Source of the DNA: Oxobacter pfennigii
Lineage (GTDB): Bacteria > Bacillota > Clostridia > Clostridiales > Oxobacteraceae
Length of the DNA: 64,000 bases
NCBI RefSeq assembly: GCF_001317355.1
Contig: NZ_LKET01000039.1
Location: 350,574 to 414,573 of the forward strand
Direction: 5' to 3'
The notes beneath the pieces were generated by a model, which saw nothing but the letters and a program-made list of their open reading frames with translations, did no database searches and was not told where the DNA came from. Positions 7,983 through 62,241 of the stretch are shown piece by piece. Position 1 is the first letter of the stretch, and the number at the start of each line of letters is the position of its first letter. A program made the position numbers and the translations under genes.

Positions 7983-8029
7983 ATATAACAATAATAAACT
8001 AACATCAGTGATCAGGAAGAGTAGATACA

Positions 8030-8332
8030 TTAACTGAGTCCCAGCGATTCCGGGGCAGTGAAAGCCGGATACTTAAGCGTGTATTGAATGGACCTGTAAG
8101 ATGGCGTGCGAAAGTTATGGTAGCATAGCCCGGGAGTCAGCCGTTACAATGAACAGGGTATCGAGGAATCCGTACCTTAGAAGAGCGTTTTATATTTTGG
8201 TGGCATAGCGAAATTCAGCATTTCGTCCTTAATGGATGAAATGCTTTTTTAATATAAAACAAAAATGGGTGGCACCACGAGTCACTTCGTCCCATATTCA
8301 GACGAAGTGGCTCTTTTTATTTGGTCCAGATT
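8030..8332 (+). promoter_or_regulatory. T-box riboswitch leader (probably Trp-specific) with intrinsic terminator
   Basis: T-box motif AAAUGGGUGGCACCACGAG at 8271-8291. Terminator CACTTCGTC/GACGAAGTG plus a U-tract at 8293-8332. Candidate specifier GAAUGGA at about 8113. It sits upstream of trpEGDCFBA. Confidence 0.7.
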
Positions 8333-22630: not shown

Positions 22631-22734
22631 CTGAAATTATAAAAATACAATCTATACTTGTAAGAGACACCATTTAATAATATAATTATATATAGAATGG
22701 AATTGAGTTCTCATAAAAATAAATAAAATTGTCA

Positions 22735-22972
22735 GGTACATGCATGTATAATAGGGAAAGCGGTGAAAATCCGCTGCAGCCCCCGCTACTGTATACGGCG
22801 ACGAAACCTAATTCCACTGGCGTTATCGCTGGGAAGGAAGGTGGAGAAAGACCCGTTAGCCAGGAGACCTGCCTGAGATTAAAAGTCCTTCGGAGGGAAG
22901 GTAACACCTATGCTATTTTTTGGCACATGGATTTTATTACTAAGCCCTCGCTTGAAGTGAGGGCTTTTAATT
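22735..22972 (+). promoter_or_regulatory. cobalamin (AdoCbl) riboswitch with intrinsic terminator
   Basis: GGTGAAAATCCGCTGCAGCCCCCGCTACTGTA ... GTTAGCCAGGAGACCTGCC conserved blocks. Terminator AAGCCCTCGCTTGAAGTGAGGGCTTTT at 22942-22968. Confidence 0.8.
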
Positions 22973-34477: not shown

Positions 34478-34690
34478 GCCAATGAATCTTCAGGGCAGGG
34501 TGAGCAATTGAATACTTACGTATTATTTTGCATTTCCCGACCGGCGGTACAGCCCGCGAGCTTTTAATTAAGCAGATCCGGTTTAATTCCGGAGCCGACA
34601 GTAAAGTCTGGATGAAAGAAGGTTGTGTTTACCTTGTATTTTTCTCCTGAAGTTCTTCAGGAGCTTTTTATTTTTCAGGATTTTTTTCTT
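34478..34690 (+). promoter_or_regulatory. FMN riboswitch (RFN element) with intrinsic terminator
   Basis: CTTCAGGGCAGGGTGA...TTCCCGACCGGCGGTA...AGCCCGCGAGC...CCGGAGCCGACAGTAAAGTCTGGATG conserved blocks. Terminator CTCCTGAAGTTCTTCAGGAG plus a U-tract. Confidence 0.8.
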
Positions 34691-35587: not shown

Positions 35588-36061
35588 ATGTTGTTTGAAT
35601 CATATAGCCCCAATGATACCGAAAAAGTTGGGGAATACTTGGGCTCTATAGCCAATAAAGGCTATGTAATCTGCCTGACAGGCGATTTAGGCGCTGGAAA
35701 AACTAAATTCGTCAAAGGCCTTGCAAAGGGGCTTAATATAGATGATTATATAACAAGCCCCACCTTTACTATCGTAAACGAATATAATGGAAGGCTTCCC
35801 TTGTATCATTTCGATGTATACAGAATAAACGACACCGACGAAATGCATGAAATAGGTTTCGATGAATACATATATGGCCAAGGCGTCAGCGTTATAGAAT
35901 GGGCTAATATAATAGAAGAAATTTTGCCAAAGGAAAACATATGGGTAGACATATCAAAAGATATGGAAGTAGGCGAAGACTATCGAAAAATCCAAATCAA
36001 AGTCAACGGCGAGAAATACCAGGGACTTATATGGGAGATGATTGAAAAATGCGAGTTCTAG
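35588..36061 (+). CDS. tsaE: tRNA threonylcarbamoyladenosine biosynthesis ATPase TsaE
   Basis: P-loop GDLGAGKT with the YjeE-family pattern. Confidence 0.85.
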   Translation: MLFESYSPNDTEKVGEYLGSIANKGYVICLTGDLGAGKTKFVKGLAKGLNIDDYITSPTFTIVNEYNGRLPLYHFDVYRINDTDEMHEIGFDEYIYGQGVSVIEWANIIEEILPKENIWVDISKDMEVGEDYRKIQIKVNGEKYQGLIWEMIEKCEF

Positions 36062-36756
36062 CCATAGATACCTCATCCATGGTGGCATCCGTCGCGGTAG
36101 CCGACGAAAATAAACTCATAGGAGAGATAACCTACAATTACAAAAAACAGCATTCCACCATAATAATGCCCATGATAGACGATTTATTAAAATCTATCGA
36201 ATTGGACATAAAAGATATGGATGCAATTGCCTGTGCCTCAGGTCCCGGCTCCTTTACGGGATTGAGAATCGGCGCTGCAACGGTAAAGGGATTATGCCAG
36301 GGTGCAAATAAGCCATTGATCGCCATACCTACTCTCGATGCTCTTGTGTACAATCTTCCCCACTCAAAGGGAATAATATGCCCTATAATGGATGCCCTAA
36401 GGGATAACGTATACACCTGTATCTACAAATGGGAAGGTGATGAATTTAAAAAATTAAGTGACTATATGGCCATACATATGGATGAGCTTTTTTCGATGCT
36501 TAAAGAATACCATGAAAAAATAATATTTTTAGGTGACGGTATCTTTGTGCACAAAGAAAAAATACAACTGGAATTAAGGGAAAAGCCAGTATTTGCTCCC
36601 CCTCACCTTAATATGCAAAAAGCATCCTCCATTGCAGCCCTTGCATTAAAGCGGCTTAATAATAACGATACCGATGATTATATAACTTTTGCCCCCTTTT
36701 ATTTAAGACAATCCCAGGCCGAAAGGGAATATGACAAAGCCAGCAGAGGAGAATAA
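36049..36756 (+). CDS. tsaB: tRNA threonylcarbamoyladenosine biosynthesis protein TsaB
   Basis: YeaZ-like N-terminus MRVLAIDTSS. Confidence 0.85.
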   Translation: MRVLAIDTSSMVASVAVADENKLIGEITYNYKKQHSTIIMPMIDDLLKSIELDIKDMDAIACASGPGSFTGLRIGAATVKGLCQGANKPLIAIPTLDALVYNLPHSKGIICPIMDALRDNVYTCIYKWEGDEFKKLSDYMAIHMDELFSMLKEYHEKIIFLGDGIFVHKEKIQLELREKPVFAPPHLNMQKASSIAALALKRLNNNDTDDYITFAPFYLRQSQAEREYDKASRGE

Positions 36757-36760
36757 AGTC

Positions 36761-37210
36761 ATGGGGGATATAAAATTATGCAGAATGGATATAGATGACA
36801 TACCGGAGATTATGGTGATAGAAAACCTCTCCTTTGCCGTACCCTGGTCGGCTGAATCCTTCATAACTGAAGTGCAAAACAACAGAGCCGCAAGATATGT
36901 AGTGGCAAAGGACACGGATAAAGTAATAGGCTACGGAGGCATGTGGATTATATTGGATGAAAGCCACATAACCAACATAGCAGTACACCCCGATTACAGG
37001 GGTAAAGGAATAGGAAACCTTATCTTAAAGGCAATGATTGAAATGGCAAAACAAGAAAATATCATAGCCATGACATTGGAGGTTAGAAGGACAAATTACA
37101 TAGCCCAAAGGCTTTATGAAAAATACGGCTTTGTATCCGTCGGCATTCGCCCTAAATACTACGAAGACAACAATGAGGACGCCATCATCATGTGGAAAAA
37201 CAATGTGTAA
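36761..37210 (+). CDS. rimI: ribosomal-protein-alanine N-acetyltransferase (GNAT)
   Basis: GNAT motifs (VHPDYRGKGIG). GAGGAG RBS lies 9 nt before the ATG. Confidence 0.8.
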   Translation: MGDIKLCRMDIDDIPEIMVIENLSFAVPWSAESFITEVQNNRAARYVVAKDTDKVIGYGGMWIILDESHITNIAVHPDYRGKGIGNLILKAMIEMAKQENIIAMTLEVRRTNYIAQRLYEKYGFVSVGIRPKYYEDNNEDAIIMWKNNV

Positions 37211-37276
37211 ATTTTTTCAGACATATTCAGAATACTGACGTATATAACAATAGAAGAGTTTGAAAGAAGTGGTGAT

Positions 37277-37834
37277 ATGATAGATGAGGAGGCTTTGCTG
37301 ATTTCCAGGGCACAGGAAGGCGACCTGGACGCCTTCAGCGAACTTATAACAAAACATAAAAAGCTCATATATAACCTGTGCCTTAGGATGCTTTATGACA
37401 GAGGCGAAGCCGAGGATGCCACCCAGGAGGCCTTCATGAAAATATACAGAGGCTTGAAATCTTATAACGGCACAAGCAAATTCTCCACCTGGGCTGTAAA
37501 AATTGCATCCAACATCTGCATAGATATTATAAGAAAGAGGAAAATCACAACACTGCCTATAGAGGATTACGAGCTGAAGGATGACACATCTCCGGAAAAA
37601 AGCTATATAAAATCCGAGTCATACCGGGAAATAGAGCAGGCCATAGAGGCACTTCCTGAAAAATATAAAATAATGATAGTATATTACCACTTTATGAACC
37701 TATCATATGAAGAGATATCAAAAATATTAAAGGAACCAATGACCATAGTTAAAAACAGGCTTTACAGAGCCAGGCTCATGTTAAAGGAAAATCTTAAAGA
37801 AAAGGGGGGCTACAATGGACTGCAGAGCGGCTGA
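37277..37834 (+). CDS. ECF-type RNA polymerase sigma-70 factor
   Basis: Region 2 (FSELITKHKKLIYNLCLRM...DATQEAFMKIY) and region 4 (NLSYEEISKIL). Confidence 0.8.
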   Translation: MIDEEALLISRAQEGDLDAFSELITKHKKLIYNLCLRMLYDRGEAEDATQEAFMKIYRGLKSYNGTSKFSTWAVKIASNICIDIIRKRKITTLPIEDYELKDDTSPEKSYIKSESYREIEQAIEALPEKYKIMIVYYHFMNLSYEEISKILKEPMTIVKNRLYRARLMLKENLKEKGGYNGLQSG

Positions 37835-38384
37835 TAATCTTATGATGAAATATCTGGATGGGGACATTACGCAAAAAGAATATGAAATGCTTAATATGCA
37901 TCTTTCATCCTGTGAGAGCTGCAAAATGGAATTTGAGATTCTTCGCAGTGCCTTTTTTAGCATTGACAATATCAAGATGGAAGAGGCCCCCGAAAACCTT
38001 GAAAGGCTTGTAGTATCAAAGATAAGAAGTGAGAAGCCTGTCAGGGCTAAAAATTCATGGCTTCCCATTGCTGTTAGCTTTCTTGCAGTCATCATGGGAT
38101 GGATAAACATTATACTTGTTTTCAGGTTTACACCGGCGGCAAGCATAATTTCAGACAGCTTCAGTCATCTCAACTTCTTGTTCAATGAGCTCTTTGATTT
38201 ATCCTTAAGCCTGTGGAAAACCATATTTACAGGGTCATTAAAGCTTTTAGCCATGGGGAGAGCCCTTGACATAGCAAGGGGAGTCATCCTGGAAACCTAC
38301 GGCATGGCAATAGCCCTTATGATTTTGATGTCAGCAGTGGTATTGAGGTTATACGGTAATATATACAGAGCCTTTAAACATTAG
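37815..38384 (+). CDS. anti-sigma factor (zf-HC2 N-terminus, single TM)
   Basis: N-terminal C..H...C..C zinc-finger pattern (LSSCESCKMEF). Overlaps the sigma gene end. Confidence 0.65.
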   Translation: MDCRAADNLMMKYLDGDITQKEYEMLNMHLSSCESCKMEFEILRSAFFSIDNIKMEEAPENLERLVVSKIRSEKPVRAKNSWLPIAVSFLAVIMGWINIILVFRFTPAASIISDSFSHLNFLFNELFDLSLSLWKTIFTGSLKLLAMGRALDIARGVILETYGMAIALMILMSAVVLRLYGNIYRAFKH

Positions 38385-47509: not shown

Positions 47510-47617
47510 AACTTGTAAATAAATTATTAAACAAGTATTGATTTTTAATGTCAGTTATTATAGAATAATAACAGCAATAGCAAAGGTGAACGTTTTTAAT
47601 AAAACTGAATATAAAGT

Positions 47618-47790
47618 TCGCCCGTATATACCCGGTAATATGGTCCGGGTGTTTCTACCAGACTGCCGCAAATTGTCTGACTATGGGTGTTTGTAAGCAT
47701 AATGCATAAAATGTTCAGATTTATTTCGTGTTGCTACATACAATATTTGCTTGTAAACTCCCTTATTTTTCATAAGGGAGTTTTATCTTT
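47618..47790 (+). promoter_or_regulatory. purine riboswitch, guanine-specific (C at the specificity position), with intrinsic terminator
   Basis: CCCGUAUAUACCCGGUAAUAUGGUCCGGGUGUUUCUACCAGACUGCCGCAAAUUGUCUGACUAUGGG. Terminator AAACTCCCTTA...TAAGGGAGTTTT at 47755-47790. Confidence 0.8.
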
Positions 47791-54116: not shown

Positions 54117-55139
54117 ATGGAGAGGAAAGATTATGTTGTATTGGGGATAGAGTCAAGCTGCGACGAGACCTCGGCGGCAGTTGTTAAGGGCGGCAGAGAG
54201 CTCCTTTCAAATATAATATCGACACAGATAGAGCTGCATAAAAAGTTCGGAGGAGTAGTGCCGGAGGTAGCGTCAAGGAAACATGTGGAGCTTATAAATG
54301 TGGTTATACAGGAAGCCTTGGATAAAGCGGGAGTGACCCTTAATGATGTGGATATTATAGGAGCGACTTACGGGCCTGGACTGGTAGGAGCCCTTTTGGT
54401 AGGGCTTTCGACGGCAAAGGCACTAAGCTTTGCTGCAAAGAAAAAATTTGTAGGCGTAAACCACATAGAGGGCCATATATGTGCTAATTTTCTGGCACAT
54501 AAAGAGCTGGAGCCTCCTTTTGTGTGTCTGGTGGTGTCAGGAGGCCATACCAATATAGTTTACATCGAAGATTACGGAAAATTTGAAATAATGGGAAGAA
54601 CCAGAGATGACGCTGCAGGAGAAGCCTATGATAAAATTGCCAGGGCATTGGGACTGGGCTATCCGGGAGGTCCGGTAATTGATAAACTGGCGCTTCAGGG
54701 CAACAAGGATGCCGTTAACTTCCCCAGAATAAACCTTGATAAAAGCCTTGATTTCAGCTTCAGCGGATTAAAGACCTCTGTTTTAAATTATATAAATAAG
54801 CTTAATATGGTAGGCACAAAGATAATAGTTGAGGATGTTGCCGCAGCCTTTCAAGAGGCGGTGGTGGACGTTCTTGTGGATAAGACAATAAATGCCGCCA
54901 TTTTGAAAAAAAGCAAAATAATTGGAATTGCCGGCGGAGTTGCGTCAAATTCAAGACTGAGAGAAAAATTCATGGAGAAGGCTAAGATACACGATATACA
55001 AATATTTTTTCCACCTCCCATATTGTGCACCGATAATGCAGCTATGATCGCTTCGGCAGCATATTACGAATATGTAAACGGAAGGGAATCGGATATGAGT
55101 CTTAACGCAAACCCTTCATTAAGGCTGGGTCAGCGGTAA
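54117..55139 (+). CDS. tsaD: tRNA N6-adenosine threonylcarbamoyltransferase
   Basis: Kae1/TsaD N-terminus ([16 protein letters not shown]) and metal-binding H..H. Confidence 0.9.
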
Positions 55140-55237
55140 GGCATATTTTGTATATGCAATTAGTGTATAATCTATAATTTTGTATTATGTAAACAGATTA
55201 TGAGTAAATTTTAAAGAATGGTTGTTAAAAACTCAAT

Positions 55238-55319
55238 TGTGGATAGTGTGAAAATAGTCATAAAATTAGAAAGTTCTAGTGTGGATATCTGTGGATAACT
55301 GTGTGGATAATGTGGATGG
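55238..55319 (-). promoter_or_regulatory. cluster of five DnaA boxes (TTATCCACA on the minus strand)
   Basis: TGTGGATAG at 55238, TGTGGATAT at 55280, TGTGGATAA at 55290, TGTGGATAA at 55302 and TGTGGATGG at 55311, all in one orientation within 82 bp. Confidence 0.6.
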
Positions 55320-55417
55320 ACTGCATTAACATAACAAAAAAAATTTATTTACGACATATTTTATGTGTACCAAAGTATACTGAGAAATTATGCATATGCA
55401 TTAAAAAGAGGTAAAAA

Positions 55418-56755
55418 ATGAAAACCGCACCTTATGATTATATACTTAAAACCATTGATAATACTAATATCTTGCCTGTAACCTCCAAATGCATCACCGG
55501 GTGTATATTCTGCAGTCATAAGAATAATCCTGCGGATATTGTTACATTTTGTATGCCAAATTTGTCGTCAAACCAAATTAAGGATTTATGTGAGTTTTTA
55601 GATAAGAATAAAAGGATCGTAATAGGTGAATCAGCCAGCAGAATAATAGAGGGAGAACCTTTCTTAAGGGAGGATTTATTAGATATACTTTACTATATAA
55701 GAAATAAATTCAAAAACACCCCCATAGTAATAACTACAAGCGGTAACCAGCTGACAAAAGAAAAAATAAGAAAATTAAAGGAATTTGAGCCTATAGAAAT
55801 CAATTTATCTTTAAACAGCTCAACAAAAATCGGCAGAGAACTTCTTTTTAAAGGAAAGCACCATGAAAATGCTGTCATAGCACCAAAGCATTTAAGTGAT
55901 GCAGGTGTAGCTTTTAACGGCAGCCTGGTAGCAATGCCTGACATAGCGGGCTATGAGGATATAGAAGAGACTGTTTCCTTTTTAAGCGAAAGCGGAGCAC
56001 AGACTGTAAGGGTATATGTTCCCGGCTTTTCAAAGTTTAGTGAGTATGATGCGGATTTCTTTGAAATAAGAGAACGCTTAAATATTATAGCAGACAGGGT
56101 CCATGAAAAGTACAGGGTACCTATACTTGTGGAACCCCCGGAAATAAATAATCTTACTCCTGCCATAGCCGGTGTTATTAGAAATTCCCCTGCCCAAATC
56201 TGTGGCATGGAAAAAGGGGACATAGTATTAAAAGTAAATGACTATAAGCCTCAGTCCAGAGTGGATGCCTATAACCGCATATATAAAGATCAAAATCCCA
56301 AAGTAACCATAAAAAGAAAAAATTGTGAATTTAAAGCTACAATAATAAAGGAAGGTGACGCATCGGCAGGCGCAGTATTTTATTACGACCTTCACCCCGA
56401 TACCATAAGAAGCATTGATAAATCCATAAAAAGATGCAATGCTAAAAAACCCGTTATTATAACGTCCCGCCTGGCCTATAAGGCTATTGAATCAGGCATA
56501 AAGAATATGTCCATGTTCGGTGACGGTCATATTAATATTTTGGCTGTGGATAATAAGTACTTCGGCGGCACTATAATGTGCGCAGGGCTTCTAACGGTGG
56601 ATGACATAATTGATAAACTATCAGCTTCCAAAGAAGAGTATGATTTAATAATTCTCCCGGCCGCTCCATTTGATTTGAGTGGCTATGACCTTACAGGCCA
56701 TAACTTTGAAGAAATACAGGATAAGCTAAATATTAGAGCAATAATAGCCGAATAG
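55418..56755 (+). CDS. radical SAM protein with internal PDZ domain (DUF512-type)
   Basis: CITGCIFC (CX3CX2C) at residues 25-32 and a PDZ-like GMEKGDIVLKVNDY segment. 445 aa. Confidence 0.7.
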   Translation: MKTAPYDYILKTIDNTNILPVTSKCITGCIFCSHKNNPADIVTFCMPNLSSNQIKDLCEFLDKNKRIVIGESASRIIEGEPFLREDLLDILYYIRNKFKNTPIVITTSGNQLTKEKIRKLKEFEPIEINLSLNSSTKIGRELLFKGKHHENAVIAPKHLSDAGVAFNGSLVAMPDIAGYEDIEETVSFLSESGAQTVRVYVPGFSKFSEYDADFFEIRERLNIIADRVHEKYRVPILVEPPEINNLTPAIAGVIRNSPAQICGMEKGDIVLKVNDYKPQSRVDAYNRIYKDQNPKVTIKRKNCEFKATIIKEGDASAGAVFYYDLHPDTIRSIDKSIKRCNAKKPVIITSRLAYKAIESGIKNMSMFGDGHINILAVDNKYFGGTIMCAGLLTVDDIIDKLSASKEEYDLIILPAAPFDLSGYDLTGHNFEEIQDKLNIRAIIAE

Positions 56756-56901: not shown

Positions 56902-58149
56902 ATGGACTTCAATGATGAAAACTCGGCAATAATGTTTGAATTATTAAGCAACATTTTATTTTATCCGGCACCCATTGGAAAGTCAGATGAGATATATACT
57001 ATGCTTTTAAGGCAATTCATAACCGCCTTCAAAGGCGAAATGGGTTTCATGCATTTGTTCAAAAACAGCAGCCTTAAGCTGGACGAGGACCTTATAACAT
57101 ACTACAATGTTCCCCGGGATTACATGGATATATTGATTCGCAACAAGGATAAGGTTTCTATAGAATTGGACAAAGTATTTTCACAGGGTAAATGCTATCT
57201 TTTAGATGAGAACGGTGGAAGTCAATATGAATTAAATGCCATGAGGAAGAAATATAAAATTGTATATTCCGTTACTGTGCCCATGTGGCTGGAAGATAAA
57301 CTGACAGGGATAGTATATATTGCCTCAACAAAGAAAAATTTTGCCTTTGAAGACCGCATAGATTTCATGAAGGATTGCTGCAACAGGGCAGCAGCCGTTC
57401 TTAAAATACGCGCTGAATTTTTTTCCATTTATGACAGCCTTCTTCATGTGGAAAAAATGAATGCCTTAAACGTATTGACCGGCGGTATCGCCCATGAGTT
57501 TAACAATGTGCTGACTCCTATCCTGGGATTTTCACAGATGCTTATTAAAAAGCTGGATGATCCCAATTTAAAAATATATGCCCAAATGATAGAACAAAGT
57601 GCCAGGGACGGGGCTATGATTGTCAAAAGGGTAAATGAATTCACTAGAAAAGAGGCGGCTGGAGAAAAAGAACCCTGTGATATAAACGATTTGATATTAA
57701 AGAGCATTTACATGGTTCATCCCCAGTGGAAGGAAGAAGAATTGACTGCAGGTAAAAAGGTTTCGATATACACCGAATTAAAGGCCAGCGGGTATGTATA
57801 CTGCAACTGCTGTGAAATCAGGGATGTAATAACCAATCTTCTCATAAACGCCTTCGATGCTATTGAAACCACAGGCAAAATAACAGTAAAAAGCTGGGAT
57901 GAGGACGACAACGTATGCTTTGTTATAGAGGACGACGGCATAGGCATGAGCGATGAAGTCTTGGAAAAAATATTCACGCCTTTTTTCACTACTAAAACCA
58001 AGAGAGGCACCGGTCTTGGCCTATCTATCGCCCACAACATAATCGCCGGCTATTTCGGCACTATCAACGCTTACAGCATCCCCGGCTACGGCACCCAAAT
58101 GGTCGTCAAACTCCCCCTTTATAATCCACCGGCACATGATGCAACCTAG
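56902..58149 (+). CDS. cytoplasmic sensor histidine kinase with N-terminal GAF-like domain
   Basis: HisKA H-box (GIAHEFNNVLTPILG) and HATPase_c G-boxes (EDDGIGM, GTGLGLSIA). No TM helices and no adjacent response regulator. Confidence 0.75.
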   Translation: MDFNDENSAIMFELLSNILFYPAPIGKSDEIYTMLLRQFITAFKGEMGFMHLFKNSSLKLDEDLITYYNVPRDYMDILIRNKDKVSIELDKVFSQGKCYLLDENGGSQYELNAMRKKYKIVYSVTVPMWLEDKLTGIVYIASTKKNFAFEDRIDFMKDCCNRAAAVLKIRAEFFSIYDSLLHVEKMNALNVLTGGIAHEFNNVLTPILGFSQMLIKKLDDPNLKIYAQMIEQSARDGAMIVKRVNEFTRKEAAGEKEPCDINDLILKSIYMVHPQWKEEELTAGKKVSIYTELKASGYVYCNCCEIRDVITNLLINAFDAIETTGKITVKSWDEDDNVCFVIEDDGIGMSDEVLEKIFTPFFTTKTKRGTGLGLSIAHNIIAGYFGTINAYSIPGYGTQMVVKLPLYNPPAHDAT

Positions 58150-58213
58150 ACTGCTTAGAAAAAATAAGCTTATCAAACTTAGGGGATTAAGTACAAACTA
58201 ATGTACCAGCAGA

Positions 58214-58437
58214 TATGATGAACAAAACATTGCGCAGTGACTGCAGAGGCTGTTAACGAGGTAATTTTGCATAGTCTATTAGTAACGAAGACTAGTAGAT
58301 GTGATAGTAAGCCAAAAGAGATAGCGGAATGTCCGTGTGCCTGTTAACGAAGGACAGGCAACATAAGTCATTGTTTGAGCGATAGCGAGTTATGACTTAT
58401 GTCCTGGCCGAGTTTTACAGACACTAGGACATGCAGC
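58214..58437 (+). repeat. Dispersed element family A, long copy
   Basis: AGATATGATGAACAAAACATTGCGCAGTGACTGCAGAGGCTGTTAACGAGG ... ATAGCGGAATGTCCGTGTGCCTGTTAAC ... ATAAGTCATTGTTTGAGCGATAGCG ... GAGTTTTACAGACACTAGGA. Confidence 0.55.
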
Positions 58438-58466
58438 GTTCTGAAGGTTTACTATCAATCGCATTG

Positions 58467-60395
58467 TTAAACTAAAGTTTCCCACTGCTCGTATAGGGAA
58501 GAGAGCTTAGATTCTAAATTTTTAAGTTCATCGTTAATCTCCTGGCACTTCACCGGATCCGAGTAAATGGTATCCAGACAGAGGAACTCGTGGAGCTCGG
58601 CAATGCGAGCTTCGCAAGAAGAGATATCCTCTTCAATGGACTTTATGATTTCTTTCTCTTTTTTCTCCCTTTGAGCCTGCTCCTTTAATTTGCGTTTTTC
58701 TTCCTTCATGGCGGTCTTGGTCATGCCGGGCAAAATTTGGGGCTGCTCAATAAACCTGGTGGGCCTGCCTTTTTTCTCAAGATAATATGAGTAGTTTCCA
58801 GGGTATTCCGTCGTGCCTGCCAAGCCTTCAAGATAAACAATGCGGTTTACCACCTTGTTTAAAAAATACCTGTCATGAGAAATTGTGAGTATGGTTCCGT
58901 CATAATTTAAAAGAGCATTCTCCAAGGCTTCCTTCGATATTATATCAAGATGATTTGTAGGTTCATCCAGCAGAAGAAAATTTGCCTGGGACAGCATGAG
59001 CTTAACTAAAGCCACACGGCTTTTTTCTCCTCCGCTAAGCGTGCTTATGCTCTTAAAAGCATCCTCTCCCGGGAAGAGAAAGGCGCCTAAAATTGTGCGA
59101 AGCTTTGTTTGTGTCAGGTCTGGATATGTATCCCATACCTCATCAATAACTGTTTTATTTACATCCAAATCCGACTGTTCCTGATCGTAATATCCTATCT
59201 TAACGTTGCGCCCTAAGTTAATATGGCCGGAATCGGGATTTAAAGCTCCCATAATCATCTTAAACAGCGTAGTCTTTCCCGTTCCGTTAGGGCCGATTAG
59301 CGCCACCCTTTCACCCTTTTTAAGATAAAGGTCTAAATTATTAAAAAGGGTTCTTGTTCCGAAGGATTTGGAGAGATTTTCGGCATCCAATACGTCATTG
59401 CCGCTTTTTATCCTTACCTCAAAGCTCATTTTTGCTGCTTCGGGATCGTTATCCGGCCGGTCAATGCGCTCGATTTTCTCCAATGCCTTTTCACGGCTTT
59501 CAGCCTGCTTGATGCTTTTTTCCCTGTTGTAGGACCTGAAGCGTTCAATTATAGCTTCCTGTCTTGCAATTTCCTTTTGCTGAAGATTATACTGCTTGTA
59601 GAGGTTCTCTTTTCTTACTTCTCTTTCCCGCACATAATATGAATAATTGCCGTTGTATTCATCCAGCCTGTTGTTGCCAAGCTCATAGGTTTTGTTGGTC
59701 ACAATATCAAGAAAGAACCTGTCGTGGGAAATAATAAAAAGGCACCCTCTGTAAGCCTTTAAAAAATCCTCCAGCCATTCCACCGCATCTAAATCCAAAT
59801 GGTTTGTAGGTTCATCAAGCAAGAGAATATCCGGTTTTGTAAGCAGAAGCTTTCCTAAGGCAACTCTGGTTTTTTGACCTCCGCTTAAAATATTTATCCC
59901 TTTATCAAAATCCTCGGCTGTAAAGCCCAGCCCTATAAGCACACCTTTGGAGAAGCTTCCGTAACCATAGCCGTCACGGCGGGTGAATTCATCCTGAAGG
60001 TTTGAGTATTCCGTCATAAGCCTTTCATGATATTCAGTGTCTGCCATGTTCTTTTCGTCGGCTATCATAATTTCAAGCTCTCTTAGACGGGCTTCCATCT
60101 TGACTAAATCATCATACACAGTTAAAACTTCCTCAATGACCGTCCTTGAGGAATCAAGGGACATGTTCTGAGGGAGATATCCAAGAGATATATCTTTAGC
60201 GGTATATTTATCGCCTGAATCGGCAATAATTTCACCGATTATTATTTTAAACAATGTTGATTTTCCGGCGCCGTTTACGCCTACAAGTCCTATTTTATCT
60301 CCTTCCTGCATACTGAAGGAGATATTTTCCAGTATGGTATTTGTACCATAAGCTTTGCAGATATTATTACAAGAGAGGACAATCAAAAATATCAC
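58467..60395 (-). CDS. ABC-F family ATPase (YdiF/Uup-like translation factor, no TM domains)
   Basis: Two ABC cassettes (GVNGAGKST, GPNGTGKTT), an inter-domain linker and a C-terminal coiled coil. 642 aa. Confidence 0.85.
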   Translation of the reverse strand: MIFLIVLSCNNICKAYGTNTILENISFSMQEGDKIGLVGVNGAGKSTLFKIIIGEIIADSGDKYTAKDISLGYLPQNMSLDSSRTVIEEVLTVYDDLVKMEARLRELEIMIADEKNMADTEYHERLMTEYSNLQDEFTRRDGYGYGSFSKGVLIGLGFTAEDFDKGINILSGGQKTRVALGKLLLTKPDILLLDEPTNHLDLDAVEWLEDFLKAYRGCLFIISHDRFFLDIVTNKTYELGNNRLDEYNGNYSYYVREREVRKENLYKQYNLQQKEIARQEAIIERFRSYNREKSIKQAESREKALEKIERIDRPDNDPEAAKMSFEVRIKSGNDVLDAENLSKSFGTRTLFNNLDLYLKKGERVALIGPNGTGKTTLFKMIMGALNPDSGHINLGRNVKIGYYDQEQSDLDVNKTVIDEVWDTYPDLTQTKLRTILGAFLFPGEDAFKSISTLSGGEKSRVALVKLMLSQANFLLLDEPTNHLDIISKEALENALLNYDGTILTISHDRYFLNKVVNRIVYLEGLAGTTEYPGNYSYYLEKKGRPTRFIEQPQILPGMTKTAMKEEKRKLKEQAQREKKEKEIIKSIEEDISSCEARIAELHEFLCLDTIYSDPVKCQEINDELKNLESKLSSLYEQWETLV

Positions 60396-60667: not shown

Positions 60668-61354
60668 ATGAAATTGGGCGATAAAAGACAAATATCCATG
60701 GCAGTAGTCAGGAGGCTCCCCAAGTATCACAGATATTTACTTGAACTTATAAGAAACGATGTGGACAGAATATCATCTAAGGAATTAAGCGACAGAATAG
60801 GTTTCACAGCATCTCAAATAAGGCAGGACCTTAATAATTTCGGAGACTTTGGCCAGCAGGGATATGGTTATAATGTTAAGGACCTTTACAATGAAATAAG
60901 CAATATTTTGGGGCTCCATGCAAACTACAACATGGTTATAGCCGGTGCCGGAAATTTAGGTCAGGCAATTGCCGGTTATTCAAATTTTGAGAAAGAGGGG
61001 TTCAGGGTTAAGGCTTTATTTGACATAAATCCGAAGCTTATTGGACTCAGTATAAGGGATATAGAGATATTTGACATAGATAATCTCAGAAATTATCTTC
61101 ATGACAACAAAGTAGACATAGGTATAATATGTACTCCCCGTGTTCAGGCTCAGAAAGTAGCCGATGTAATGGTTAAAAACGGCATCACTGCCATTTGGAA
61201 CTTTGCCCCTACTGACCTTGATGTACCCAGAGGTGTAATAGTTGAGAACGTACATCTGTTAGACAGCCTTCTTACTCTCACATACAGAGTAAATGAACCT
61301 AAATTGCTTGATTACATTAATAAGGACCCTGAAGAAATAGTAGAAGAAGAGTAA
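60668..61354 (+). CDS. rex: redox-sensing transcriptional repressor Rex
   Basis: Rex N-terminal wHTH (VVRRLPKYHRYL) and Rossmann GAGNLG. The start may be TTG 60674. Confidence 0.85.
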   Translation: MKLGDKRQISMAVVRRLPKYHRYLLELIRNDVDRISSKELSDRIGFTASQIRQDLNNFGDFGQQGYGYNVKDLYNEISNILGLHANYNMVIAGAGNLGQAIAGYSNFEKEGFRVKALFDINPKLIGLSIRDIEIFDIDNLRNYLHDNKVDIGIICTPRVQAQKVADVMVKNGITAIWNFAPTDLDVPRGVIVENVHLLDSLLTLTYRVNEPKLLDYINKDPEEIVEEE

Positions 61355-61422: not shown

Positions 61423-62241
61423 TTGAAGGTTTACGGACTCATAGGAAGAAGCGGAAGCGGAAAAAGCCACAGGGCACAGCAAGTATCCAAAGAATACAAT
61501 ATTGAATATATAATCGATGACGGCCTTTTGATAAACGGCAACAAGGTTATAGCCGGCAAATCGGCAAAAAAAGAAAGCACAAAATTAGGCGCTGTTAAAA
61601 GAGCTGTGTTTAATGATAAGGAACACATGGAAATCATGAAAAAGGCTCTTTTGGAATACAGCCCTGAAAAAGTCCTTATATTAGGAACCTCGGACAGCAT
61701 GGTGGAGAGAATTGCACAAAAACTGGGACTTCCTGAAATAACCCAAAAAATATATATAGAAGATATAGCAACCCAGAGGGAAATTGATATTGCGACCAGA
61801 ATAAGAAAAGAGCAGGGAAAGCATGTCATTCCCGTGCCTACCTTTGCCATAAAAAAGGATTTTTCCGGATATTTTATAGATTCCATAAAAGGCTTAACCA
61901 AAAAAGACAGGGAAACATCCGACGATATGGAAAAGACTGTTGTTCGGCCTACCTTCAGCTATCTTGGCAAATACACCATAGCAAACAGTGTGATAAAATC
62001 CATGGTATCCTGTGGAGCTATGAAAATTCCCGGTGTTCACAAAGTACTTAAAGTAACTGTTGAAAATACCAATGATGAGCTTATCATTTCCATGGACATA
62101 TCTATAGACTACGGAACAATACTTCCACAAATAGCCGCAAGGGTTAAAGAAAGCGTCAAAAATGATATTGAATATATGACTGCCTTTAATATTTCCGAGA
62201 TAAACATATATATAAAATCAATCAATATTGAGACAACTTAA
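61423..62241 (+). CDS. P-loop NTPase domain fused to an Asp23/Gls24-like domain, hypothetical
   Basis: Walker A GRSGSGKS at residues 8-15. The C-terminal 110 aa show the Asp23-like alternating hydrophobic pattern (YGTILPQIAARVKESVKNDIEYMTAFNISEINIYIKSI). TTG start follows GGAGGT. Confidence 0.55.
   Translation: MKVYGLIGRSGSGKSHRAQQVSKEYNIEYIIDDGLLINGNKVIAGKSAKKESTKLGAVKRAVFNDKEHMEIMKKALLEYSPEKVLILGTSDSMVERIAQKLGLPEITQKIYIEDIATQREIDIATRIRKEQGKHVIPVPTFAIKKDFSGYFIDSIKGLTKKDRETSDDMEKTVVRPTFSYLGKYTIANSVIKSMVSCGAMKIPGVHKVLKVTVENTNDELIISMDISIDYGTILPQIAARVKESVKNDIEYMTAFNISEINIYIKSINIETT

What the first reader, a model, noticed from the sequence alone, without database searches (positions are those of the whole stretch)
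55238..55319. Five co-oriented DnaA boxes in the tsaD-to-ABC-F interval: candidate DnaA-box cluster (DBC)
TGTGGATAG, TGTGGATAT, TGTGGATAA, TGTGGATAA and TGTGGATGG lie within 82 bp, far from any dnaA gene.

In Bacillus subtilis one of the non-oriC DnaA-box clusters that titrate DnaA lies between gcp (tsaD) and ydiF (an ABC-F ATPase); the gene names are recalled from memory. Here the cluster lies directly after tsaD and an ABC-F gene sits 3 kb away on the opposite strand, so the arrangement appears conserved.

A radical-SAM/PDZ gene and an orphan histidine kinase have been inserted between the cluster and the ABC-F gene. The cluster may also repress the downstream rSAM gene, because the boxes overlap its promoter region.
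Basis: partly seen in the sequence, partly recalled or inferred. Interest (0 to 1): 0.7.

Follow-up and report, generated by a model that had tools for sequence, protein, structure and literature searches.

The report
Conserved DnaA-box cluster after tsaD
The repeats are real and match, position for position, a DnaA-binding cluster known downstream of tsaD in Bacillus subtilis; finding it in a clostridium with base-exact spacing shows that a non-coding site whose role is still unclear is ancient and under selection.

Summary
A sixth, degenerate box (TGTGAAAAT, 55247-55255) sits at a conserved position. No shuffle of the window reached this density. It is the only such cluster in the window and in about 1.9 Mb of related loci.

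One protein is 100% identical to an Oxobacter pfennigii entry (Clostridia). Gene order matches the B. subtilis ydi region: tsaE-tsaB-rimI ... tsaD, cluster, ABC-F (opposite strand), rex.

In a B. subtilis-group genome, the DnaA-bound gcp(tsaD)-ydiF cluster lies at the same place, in the same orientation. It has the same core spacing: two abutting boxes, then a box exactly 52 bp on. That spacing recurs in Bacillaceae, Tissierellia and Clostridia, while the 34-nt spacer sequence is unrelated between classes. Box starts at 0, 42, 52, 64 and 73 fall on one face of the helix.

So this is an orthologue of a known non-oriC DnaA-box cluster, most likely assembling an ATP-DnaA oligomer.

The radical-SAM and kinase genes are not a recent insertion. 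Four related lineages have tsaD-cluster-rSAM, three of them with the kinase. Control of the radical-SAM gene by DnaA is untested.

Verdict: new member of a known kind, moderate interest.

The parts
55238..55246 (+). Box 1, TGTGGATAG (1 mismatch); offset 0 and reference point of the array
   Evidence: invariant TGTGGA.A in alignments A1 and A2
55247..55255 (+).
   Evidence: The same abutting second box (TGTG.A.A.) is present in Clostridia, Tissierellia and Bacillaceae relatives
55256..55279 (+). 24-nt spacer. Its length is conserved in the Oxobacter clade and its sequence is not. Box 2 to box 4 is 34 nt in nearly all lineages.
   Evidence: spacer identity between classes is 9-35%
55280..55288 (+). 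Box 3, TGTGGATAT (1 mismatch), offset +42; specific to the Oxobacter clade
55290..55298 (+). Box 4, TGTGGATAA (perfect), offset +52; this is the position shared with the B. subtilis group
55302..55310 (+). Box 5, TGTGGATAA (perfect), offset +64
55311..55319 (+). Box 6, TGTGGATGG (2 mismatches), offset +73, abutting box 5
55185..55194 (+). Flank motif TTATGTAAAC at -53, invariant (TTATGT.AAC) in six clade members. It may be a low-affinity DnaA site in the opposite orientation or a site for another factor. Role unknown.
   Evidence: alignment A2
55224..55232 (+). Weak box-like element TGTTAAAAA at -14 (TGTTATTAA or TGTGAGTAA in relatives)
   Evidence: alignment A2; inference
55361..55370 (+). 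Flank motif TTATGTGTAC at +123 (its TGTG core is at +126, which is 12.0 helical turns). It is invariant (TTATGTG.AC) in six clade members whether or not the rSAM gene follows. Role unknown.
   Evidence: alignment A2; phase calculation
54117..55139 (+). tsaD (gcp), the gene to whose 3' end the cluster stays attached in all lineages
   Evidence: Pfam TsaD 6.5e-98; NCBIfam equivalog TIGR03723, 437.6 bits against a cut-off of 296.1
55418..56755 (+). DUF512 / radical-SAM / PDZ gene downstream of the cluster. It is a conserved neighbour of tsaD in related Clostridia.
56902..58149 (+). Histidine kinase with no adjacent response regulator (HisKA + HATPase_c). Longer MEDS-domain kinases occupy the same position in L154 and L157.
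58467..60395 (-). ABC-F ATPase, 642 aa, positional counterpart of B. subtilis ydiF
60668..61354 (+). rex, which follows the ABC-F gene as in B. subtilis (ydiH)
35588..37210 (+). tsaE-tsaB-rimI. In B. subtilis these are contiguous with tsaD; here they lie 17 kb upstream.

Best explanation
This is the Oxobacter-lineage orthologue of the Bacillus subtilis non-oriC DnaA-box cluster DBC[gcp-ydiF].

Six head-to-tail DnaA boxes start at offsets 0, 9, 42, 52, 64 and 73. All except the degenerate second box fall within about 1 bp of whole helical turns. The inferred mechanism is that DnaA domain IV binds the strong boxes (1, 4, 5). Same-face, same-direction spacing then lets ATP-DnaA fill the weaker neighbours (2, 3, 6) through AAA+ contacts. 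The result would be one cooperative oligomer spanning two sub-arrays held a fixed five turns apart.

The site lies outside oriC on the leading strand. By analogy with B. subtilis, it would hold a pool of ATP-DnaA and contribute, with other clusters, to restraining initiation.

A local effect on transcription running from tsaD into the radical-SAM gene is possible but secondary.

What is shown: the sequence, its statistical significance, the orthology, the conserved geometry, and DnaA binding to the B. subtilis counterpart (from the literature). What is inferred: DnaA binding in this organism, oligomer formation, and every physiological role.
For: - Sequence and statistics.
- Synteny with the B. 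subtilis ydi region: tsaE-tsaB-rimI, tsaD, cluster, convergent 642-aa ABC-F, rex.
- The cluster in a B. subtilis-group genome (L082) is a 49-bp core, the same length as in Ishikawa's Table 2. It has the same orientation relative to tsaD and the same 0/9/52 spacing.
- The 0/9/52 spacing also occurs in B. licheniformis, two other Bacillaceae, Tissierellia (Anaeromonas and a metagenome-assembled genome) and six Clostridia relatives. Metabacillus (53) and B. pumilus (51) are off by 1 bp.
- The 34-nt spacer keeps its length, but its sequence is only 9-35% identical between classes.
- In 1.92 Mb of loci plus the window, the composite motif and every cluster of three or more boxes lie only downstream of tsaD, on the tsaD strand.
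- The boxes stay nearly invariant while the adjacent rSAM protein has diverged to 50-54% identity.
- B. subtilis DnaA binds gcp/ydiF in vivo and in vitro, with Kd 0.15 uM for ATP-DnaA and a 16-fold preference for ATP-DnaA at 55 nM (PMC2533591, PMC4447404).
- Clostridial DnaA keeps the base-contacting residues, so the same box is expected (PMC7561715).
- GC skew shows the + strand is the leading strand, as for gcp in B. subtilis.
Against: - There is no binding data for this organism.
- In B. subtilis, deleting DBC[gcp-ydiF] alone left the oriC/terC ratio unchanged (0.99). Re-inserting it at 353 degrees did not rescue the six-fold deletion (1.35 against 1.37) (PMC3245932). A review concludes that no B. 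subtilis cluster with a significant role in initiation control has been identified (PMC5295017). The titration role is therefore weakly supported for this particular cluster.
- Passive titration does not explain why position, orientation and spacing are so strictly conserved.
- The cluster is absent or eroded in Peptostreptococcaceae that keep tsaD/ABC-F/rex, and absent in L159, so it is dispensable in some lineages.
- Only 64 kb of this genome could be scanned.
Confidence: 0.78

Rival explanations
1. The cluster's main job in this clade is transcriptional. DnaA bound between tsaD and the radical-SAM gene would act as a repressor or roadblock. That would couple expression of the rSAM gene, and perhaps the kinase, to replication status, as DnaA does at ywlC, yydA, sda and dnaA in B. 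subtilis.
For: - The cluster lies upstream of, and in the same direction as, the rSAM gene in four lineages: the window, L157, L154 and L156.
- No intrinsic terminator is predicted between tsaD and rSAM in the window. In L159 the two genes are 42 bp apart, which suggests co-transcription.
- In L046 the cluster sits about 50 bp upstream of a different co-directional gene.
- DnaA is an established transcription factor at other B. subtilis clusters.
Against: - The same cluster, with the same geometry, is kept where no co-directional gene follows: L084, L001, Tissierellia and Bacillaceae, where it lies between the 3' ends of convergent genes. Ishikawa et al. call that position uncharacteristic for transcriptional regulation.
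- No promoter could be identified. Promoter-like hits are at shuffle level.
- The distance from the last box to the ATG varies between 98 and 177 nt, and the sequence there is not conserved.
- The kinase is 146 bp further on and may have its own promoter.
Confidence: 0.25
2. The repeats act in RNA or bind a protein other than DnaA. Examples would be GGA-containing repeats in a tsaD 3' UTR acting as a CsrA-type sponge, or direct-repeat operators for a response regulator.
For: Each unit contains GGAU. The units are direct repeats with a 9-12 bp period, as many response-regulator sites are. No terminator is predicted after tsaD, so the region is probably transcribed.
Against: - Two units match the 9-bp DnaA consensus 9/9 and two more match 8/9.
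- The B. subtilis counterpart is bound by DnaA.
- The spacings fit double-helix phasing, not an RNA fold.
- The RNA fold is no better than shuffles, z = -0.83.
- Rfam finds nothing here.
- In Bacillaceae an intrinsic terminator hairpin is visible between tsaD and the cluster.
Confidence: 0.03
3. It is an origin-like element: a secondary, cryptic or mobile-element-derived replication origin.
For: It has a dense co-oriented DnaA-box array in an AT-rich (74%) intergenic region.
Against: - There are no DnaA-trio runs ((TAA|TAG)x3 or the complement), and no dnaA or dnaN nearby.
- No mobile-element genes flank it.
- It occupies the same chromosomal position in three classes of Bacillota.
- GC skew does not switch sign here.
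Confidence: 0.02

Closest known systems
Bacillus subtilis DnaA-box cluster DBC[gcp-ydiF] (Ishikawa 2007; Okumura 2012; Smith & Grossman 2015)
   Same: - Located just downstream of tsaD (gcp).
- The ABC-F (ydiF-type) gene is convergent and rex lies beyond it.
- The boxes point the same way relative to tsaD and to replication.
- Both have an abutting box pair followed by a box exactly 52 bp on.
- Both exceed A = 0.3 (0.47 here, 0.38-0.60 for the B. subtilis group with the same script).
   Different: - Here there are three to four more boxes after +52 (at +42, +64, +73).
- There is no strong opposite-orientation box upstream; B. subtilis has TTATCCACA at -89.
- No terminator separates tsaD from the cluster.
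- A radical-SAM gene and a kinase lie between the cluster and the ABC-F gene.
- The host is a member of Clostridia, and DnaA binding is untested.
Escherichia coli datA
   Same: It is a non-oriC cluster of high-affinity DnaA boxes downstream of an RNA-related gene, acting negatively on initiation. A fixed architecture of boxes is needed to build a specific DnaA complex.
   Different: datA needs IHF and promotes DnaA-ATP hydrolysis. There is no sequence or positional homology. No IHF site is defined here, and no hydrolysis activity is known for any Bacillota cluster.
DnaA-regulated promoters of B. subtilis (dnaA, sda, ywlC/tsaC, yydA)
   Same: These are arrays of DnaA boxes in an intergenic region next to a co-directional gene. 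One of them, ywlC, encodes TsaC, another enzyme of the same t6A pathway as TsaD (pathway assignment from my own knowledge).
   Different: At those sites the boxes overlap or adjoin mapped promoters, and DnaA-dependent expression changes were measured. Here no promoter is mapped, and the orthologous clusters mostly lie between convergent 3' ends.
oriC DnaA-box arrays of Bacillota (incA/B/C)
   Same: They share the 9-mer consensus, head-to-tail arrangement and closely spaced boxes that support an ATP-DnaA oligomer.
   Different: There are no DnaA-trios, no defined unwinding element and no dnaA/dnaN context here.

Membership tests
Bacillus-type non-oriC DnaA-box cluster, orthologue of DBC[gcp-ydiF] | Four or more closely clustered DnaA boxes (at most 1 mismatch to TTATNCACA) with an Ishikawa A-value above 0.3 | tested here: met
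   A = 0.47 at 55238-55310. Everything else in the window scores at most 0.05. The criterion comes from PMC2533591.
Bacillus-type non-oriC DnaA-box cluster, orthologue of DBC[gcp-ydiF] | Intergenic position immediately downstream of tsaD (gcp) | tested here: met
   Box 1 starts 99 nt after the last base of the tsaD stop codon.
Bacillus-type non-oriC DnaA-box cluster, orthologue of DBC[gcp-ydiF] | Flanked on the far side by a convergent ydiF-type ABC-F gene, with rex beyond it | tested here: met
   ABC-F lies at 58467-60395 (-) and rex at 60668-61354. The order matches L082. The difference is 3 kb (rSAM and kinase) between the cluster and ABC-F. The relatives L084 and L001 have the direct convergent arrangement.
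Bacillus-type non-oriC DnaA-box cluster, orthologue of DBC[gcp-ydiF] | Box-level correspondence with the B. subtilis cluster in orientation and spacing | tested here: met
   An abutting pair at 0/9 and a box at +52, on the tsaD strand, occur in the window, L081/L082, L151, L083 and L153. The composite motif occurs nowhere else in 1.92 Mb.
Bacillus-type non-oriC DnaA-box cluster, orthologue of DBC[gcp-ydiF] | Stable DnaA binding in vivo or in vitro | not testable with these tools
   Shown only for B. subtilis. Conserved DNA-contact residues in clostridial DnaA make binding likely.
Bacillus-type non-oriC DnaA-box cluster, orthologue of DBC[gcp-ydiF] | Lies outside oriC (not adjacent to dnaA or dnaN) | tested here: met
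   No DnaA signature motif appears in six frames of the 64-kb window. GC skew is uniformly positive. The distance to oriC is unknown.
datA-type DnaA-inactivating locus | An IHF-dependent complex that stimulates DnaA-ATP hydrolysis | not testable with these tools
   There is no biochemical data. This is only an analogy with the fixed-length spacer.
DnaA-regulated promoter | Boxes overlapping or adjoining a functional promoter of the neighbouring gene | tested here: inconclusive
   Promoter-like matches number 6 against 5.4 in shuffles. The only hit inside the boxes matches 9 of 12 positions. No block is conserved between +132 and the ATG.
Chromosomal origin (oriC) module | DnaA-trio repeats and an unwinding element next to the boxes, in a dnaA/dnaN context | tested here: not met
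   No (TAA|TAG)x3 run or its complement occurs in 55140-55417. No dnaA is present.

The most novel reading that the evidence does not exclude
The tsaD-linked cluster may not be a passive DnaA sink. It could be an ancient, geometry-locked nucleoprotein device that predates the split of Bacilli, Clostridia and Tissierellia and has a specific activity.

One possibility is a Bacillota counterpart of datA or DARS that changes the state of DnaA. Another, in the Oxobacter clade, is a replication-coupled gate on transcription running from tsaD into a radical-SAM gene and a kinase that has no adjacent response regulator. If that kinase fed Spo0A, it would be a clostridial analogue of the DnaA-Sda-KinA checkpoint.

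The invariant TTATGT..AC motifs at -53 and +123 would then be sites for a partner factor or low-affinity DnaA sites that delimit the complex.
Probability: 0.15. Interest if true: 0.8.

Novelty: new member of a known kind. Interest (0 to 1): 0.5.

Why it matters
DBC[gcp-ydiF] is one of the strongest DnaA-binding sites in B. subtilis and one of the most selective for ATP-DnaA. Yet deleting it gives no phenotype, and its role has been called unclear since 2007.

The cluster survives in Clostridia and Tissierellia at the same gene boundary, in the same orientation and with base-exact spacing. Meanwhile the spacer sequence and neighbouring genes have diverged or been rearranged. That pattern argues for a selected, structure-dependent function, not incidental titration.

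It also gives concrete, testable features: the 0/9/52 core, the helical phasing and the flank motifs. It supplies natural variants for experiments as well, including lineages that lost the cluster and lineages with or without the downstream radical-SAM gene.

In the library searched, I found no paper reporting the cluster outside Bacillaceae or describing its spacing.

Tried and rejected
- Rfam at gathering thresholds found nothing in the interval.
- The RNA fold of the intergenic region is no better than shuffles, z = -0.83. An RNA element is therefore rejected.
- The promoter and terminator scan was uninformative. It gave 6 promoter-like hits against 5.4 expected, and no terminator between tsaD and rSAM.
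- A Rex operator was considered, because rex is nearby and its half-site TTGTGAA resembles the box. It was rejected on reading: the units are direct repeats with no TTCACAA partner.
- An origin-like element was rejected.
- A metagenome scan with rSAM peptide patterns found no relative.
- Exact look-ups of the window's TsaD and of P0121 were not on record. The organism assignment therefore rests on one protein, 100% identical to an entry named Oxobacter pfennigii.
- I first read the rSAM and kinase genes as a window-specific insertion, because none of 146 TsaD-anchored loci had them. I dropped this once rSAM-anchored loci showed the same arrangement in relatives that the peptide-pattern scans had missed.
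- The perfect boxes inside tsaD (54875) and rSAM (56545) were considered as outlying parts of the cluster. Both read xxT GTG GAT AAx, which encodes Val-Asp, so coding constraints can explain them.

Full report
**Observation**

The five 9-mers are exactly as reported. They lie on the + strand and are the reverse complement of the DnaA box TTATCCACA. They sit in the 278-bp gap between tsaD (54117-55139) and a DUF512/radical-SAM/PDZ gene (55418-56755). tsaD scores 6.5e-98 against Pfam TsaD and 437.6 bits against NCBIfam TIGR03723, whose cut-off is 296.1.

Four of the five are within one mismatch of the consensus. In 300 dinucleotide-preserving shuffles of the window, the densest 100 bp held 1, 2 or, once, 3 such boxes. 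The real sequence holds 4. Perfect 9-mers number 4, against 0.79 expected, all on the + strand within 1.7 kb.

I computed the A-value of Ishikawa et al. (sum of box affinities divided by mean spacing) using start-to-start distances. The site scores 0.47. The threshold that singled out the eight DnaA-bound regions of B. subtilis is 0.3. The rest of the window scores at most 0.05.

**Context**

The rSAM protein is 100% identical to an entry named Oxobacter pfennigii (Clostridia, Clostridiaceae).

The neighbourhood is a stretched version of the B. subtilis ydi region:
- tsaE-tsaB-rimI at 35588-37210;
- 17 kb of other genes;
- tsaD;
- the cluster;
- the rSAM gene;
- a histidine kinase with no adjacent response regulator (56902-58149);
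- a 642-aa ABC-F gene on the opposite strand (58467-60395);
- rex (60668-61354).

GC skew is positive throughout, so the + strand is the leading strand. No DnaA signature motif is encoded in the window.

**Literature**

DnaA forms stable complexes at eight B. subtilis intergenic regions, including gcp-ydiF. [quoted passage not shown]

In vitro it is among the tightest sites. Kd is 0.15 uM for ATP-DnaA, with a 16-fold preference for ATP-DnaA at 55 nM (PMC4447404).

Deleting six clusters together advances initiation. Deleting gcp-ydiF alone, or adding it back, has no measurable effect (PMC3245932). A later review says no cluster with a significant role has been identified (PMC5295017).

Clostridial DnaA retains the base-contacting residues (PMC7561715).

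Four searches found no paper linking a tsaD-adjacent cluster to Clostridia.

**Relatives**

TsaD-anchored scans returned 80 genome loci and 66 metagenome loci. Every cluster of three or more boxes in these loci lies directly downstream of tsaD. Clusters were found in:
- L001/L085 and L084 (TsaD 71-72% identical; ABC-F directly convergent);
- L046, a Clostridia metagenome-assembled genome;
- L047, a Tissierellia metagenome-assembled genome;
- two Anaeromonas species, which belong to Tissierellia.

Peptostreptococcaceae keep tsaD/ABC-F/rex but have lost the cluster. Terrisporobacter retains a vestige, TGTGGACAAnnnTGTGGAGAA.

**The B. subtilis counterpart**

I recalled the B. subtilis Rex sequence and verified it as identical to PDB 2VT2. 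I used it to fetch a B. subtilis-group locus, L082.

After tsaD and a terminator comes one TTATCCACA. Boxes in the opposite direction follow, including the abutting pair TGTGGATAT-TGTGTATAA. A TGTGGATAA lies 52 bp after the start of that pair. Then come the ydiF terminator, ydiF, moaC and rex. The top-scoring core is 49 bp, the same length as in Ishikawa's Table 2.

**Geometry**

Offsets below are measured from the first box of the abutting pair.

| Lineage | Box offsets |
|---|---|
| Window, L157, L154, L084, L001 | 0, 9, 42, 52, 64, 73 |
| L156 | 0, (9), 52, 64, 73 |
| L047, Anaeromonas | 0, 9, 52, 64, 73, 84 |
| B. subtilis group, B. licheniformis | 0, 9, 52 |
| L083, L153 (Bacillaceae) | 0, 9, 52, 71 |
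| Metabacillus | 0, 9, 53 (from its second abutting pair) |
| B. pumilus | 0, 9, 51, 63 |
| L046 | 0, 42, 54, 63 (a 10-bp shifted version) |

The 34-nt spacer keeps its length, but its sequence is only 9-35% identical between classes.

I searched 1.92 Mb (3.84 Mb counting both strands) for a box, an abutting TGTG, and another box 20-100 bp on. All hits lie downstream of tsaD on the tsaD strand. Eleven of 12 loci have the +52 box.

At 10.5 bp per turn, offsets 42, 52, 64, 73, 84 and 126 correspond to 4.0, 4.95, 6.1, 6.95, 8.0 and 12.0 turns. The boxes therefore share one face of the helix.

**The radical-SAM gene and the kinase**

None of the 146 TsaD-anchored loci had these genes, so I first took them for a window-specific insertion. 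A protein search then found rSAM homologues at 44-54% identity. Their contigs changed that reading:
- L157/L158 carry a Bmp-type ABC transporter, tsaD, the cluster, rSAM, a MEDS-domain kinase, ABC-F and rex. This is the same order as the window. TsaD is 78% identical and rSAM 54%.
- L154/L155 have the same core.
- L156 lacks the kinase.
- L159 (TsaD 63% identical) has tsaD and rSAM 42 bp apart and no cluster.

The arrangement is therefore a conserved feature of this clade. The boxes are nearly invariant while the rSAM protein has diverged to about 50% identity.

Alignment of six clade members (A2) also shows invariant TTATGT.AAC at -53 (window 55185-55194) and TTATGTG.AC at +123 (55361-55370). 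Both are present whether or not rSAM follows. Their role is unexplained.

**Mechanism**

Best-supported reading: a phase-locked array that nucleates a cooperative ATP-DnaA oligomer outside oriC, orthologous to DBC[gcp-ydiF]. The sequence, orthology and geometry are shown here. Binding is shown only in B. subtilis. Oligomer formation and any physiological role are inferred.

The titration role is weakly supported even in B. subtilis. It also does not explain the strict conservation, which points to a more specific, still unknown function.

Transcriptional control of rSAM is possible. The genes are co-directional, no terminator is predicted, and the juxtaposition is conserved in four lineages. 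It cannot be the ancestral role, however, because the same element sits between convergent 3' ends elsewhere. No promoter could be identified either.

The other alternatives fail: an RNA element, another transcription factor, and an origin-like element.

**Verdict**

This is a new member of a known kind. The added findings are conservation across three classes of Bacillota and a base-exact core geometry, neither of which I found described in the searched library. Interest is moderate (0.5).

Noticed in passing
window 55418-56755; L154, L156, L157, L159: The DUF512/radical-SAM/PDZ gene is a conserved immediate neighbour of tsaD in several Clostridia lineages. In L159 the gap is only 42 bp. This hints at a functional link with t6A or other tRNA modification. 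The protein reaches no NCBIfam equivalog cut-off.
   Followed up: partly
window 55185-55194 and 55361-55370: Two invariant motifs sharing TTATGT..AC flank the box array at -53 and +123 in six clade members. They are 176 bp apart. They do not meet the usual DnaA-box criteria, and their function is unknown.
   Followed up: partly
window 35588-38384; L159 1-2545: tsaE-tsaB-rimI is separated from tsaD by about 17 kb here. An ECF sigma / anti-sigma pair follows rimI both in the window and in L159, so that interruption of the Bacillus-type operon is itself conserved.
   Followed up: no
window 56902-58149; L154 7410-9260; L157 7458-9722: The kinase after the rSAM gene is 415 aa and apparently soluble. 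Its positional counterparts are 616-754 aa, with MEDS (plus GAF or a receiver) domains, and are 37-46% identical over the shared part. The window's kinase looks like a shortened version.
   Followed up: partly
window 54875-54883 and 56545-56553: The two other perfect TGTGGATAA 9-mers of the window lie inside tsaD (encoding LVDK) and inside the rSAM gene (VDN). Both are on the + strand and in the same reading phase, encoding Val-Asp. The tsaD one is also perfect in L084 and L083. Coding constraints can explain them, but they could add to local DnaA binding.
   Followed up: partly
L025 and L048 (Terrisporobacter), about +103 to +124 after tsaD: A vestigial pair, TGTGGACAAnnnTGTG(G/T)AGAA, keeps the 12-bp box 4-box 5 spacing in a family that has otherwise lost the cluster. 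It looks like an eroding remnant.
   Followed up: no
window 58150-58466: A 317-bp non-coding gap lies between the kinase and the 3' end of ABC-F. No terminator is predicted on the + strand (one weak hit on the minus strand at 58245-58233), but there is an 11-bp inverted repeat: ACATAAGTCAT at 58361-58371 and ATGACTTATGT at 58392-58402.
   Followed up: no
window 7999-8297, 22717-22890, 34482-34627, 47602-47703: Rfam hits above gathering score: a T-box leader, a cobalamin riboswitch, an FMN riboswitch and a purine riboswitch. The purine riboswitch lies upstream of a 189-aa ORF and the Bmp-type ABC transporter that precedes tsaD.
   Followed up: no
window 61423-62241: A 272-aa ORF after rex has a weak P-loop/ABC-like N-terminus and an Asp23-family C-terminus. 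It has no NCBIfam match. This is an unusual combination.
   Followed up: no
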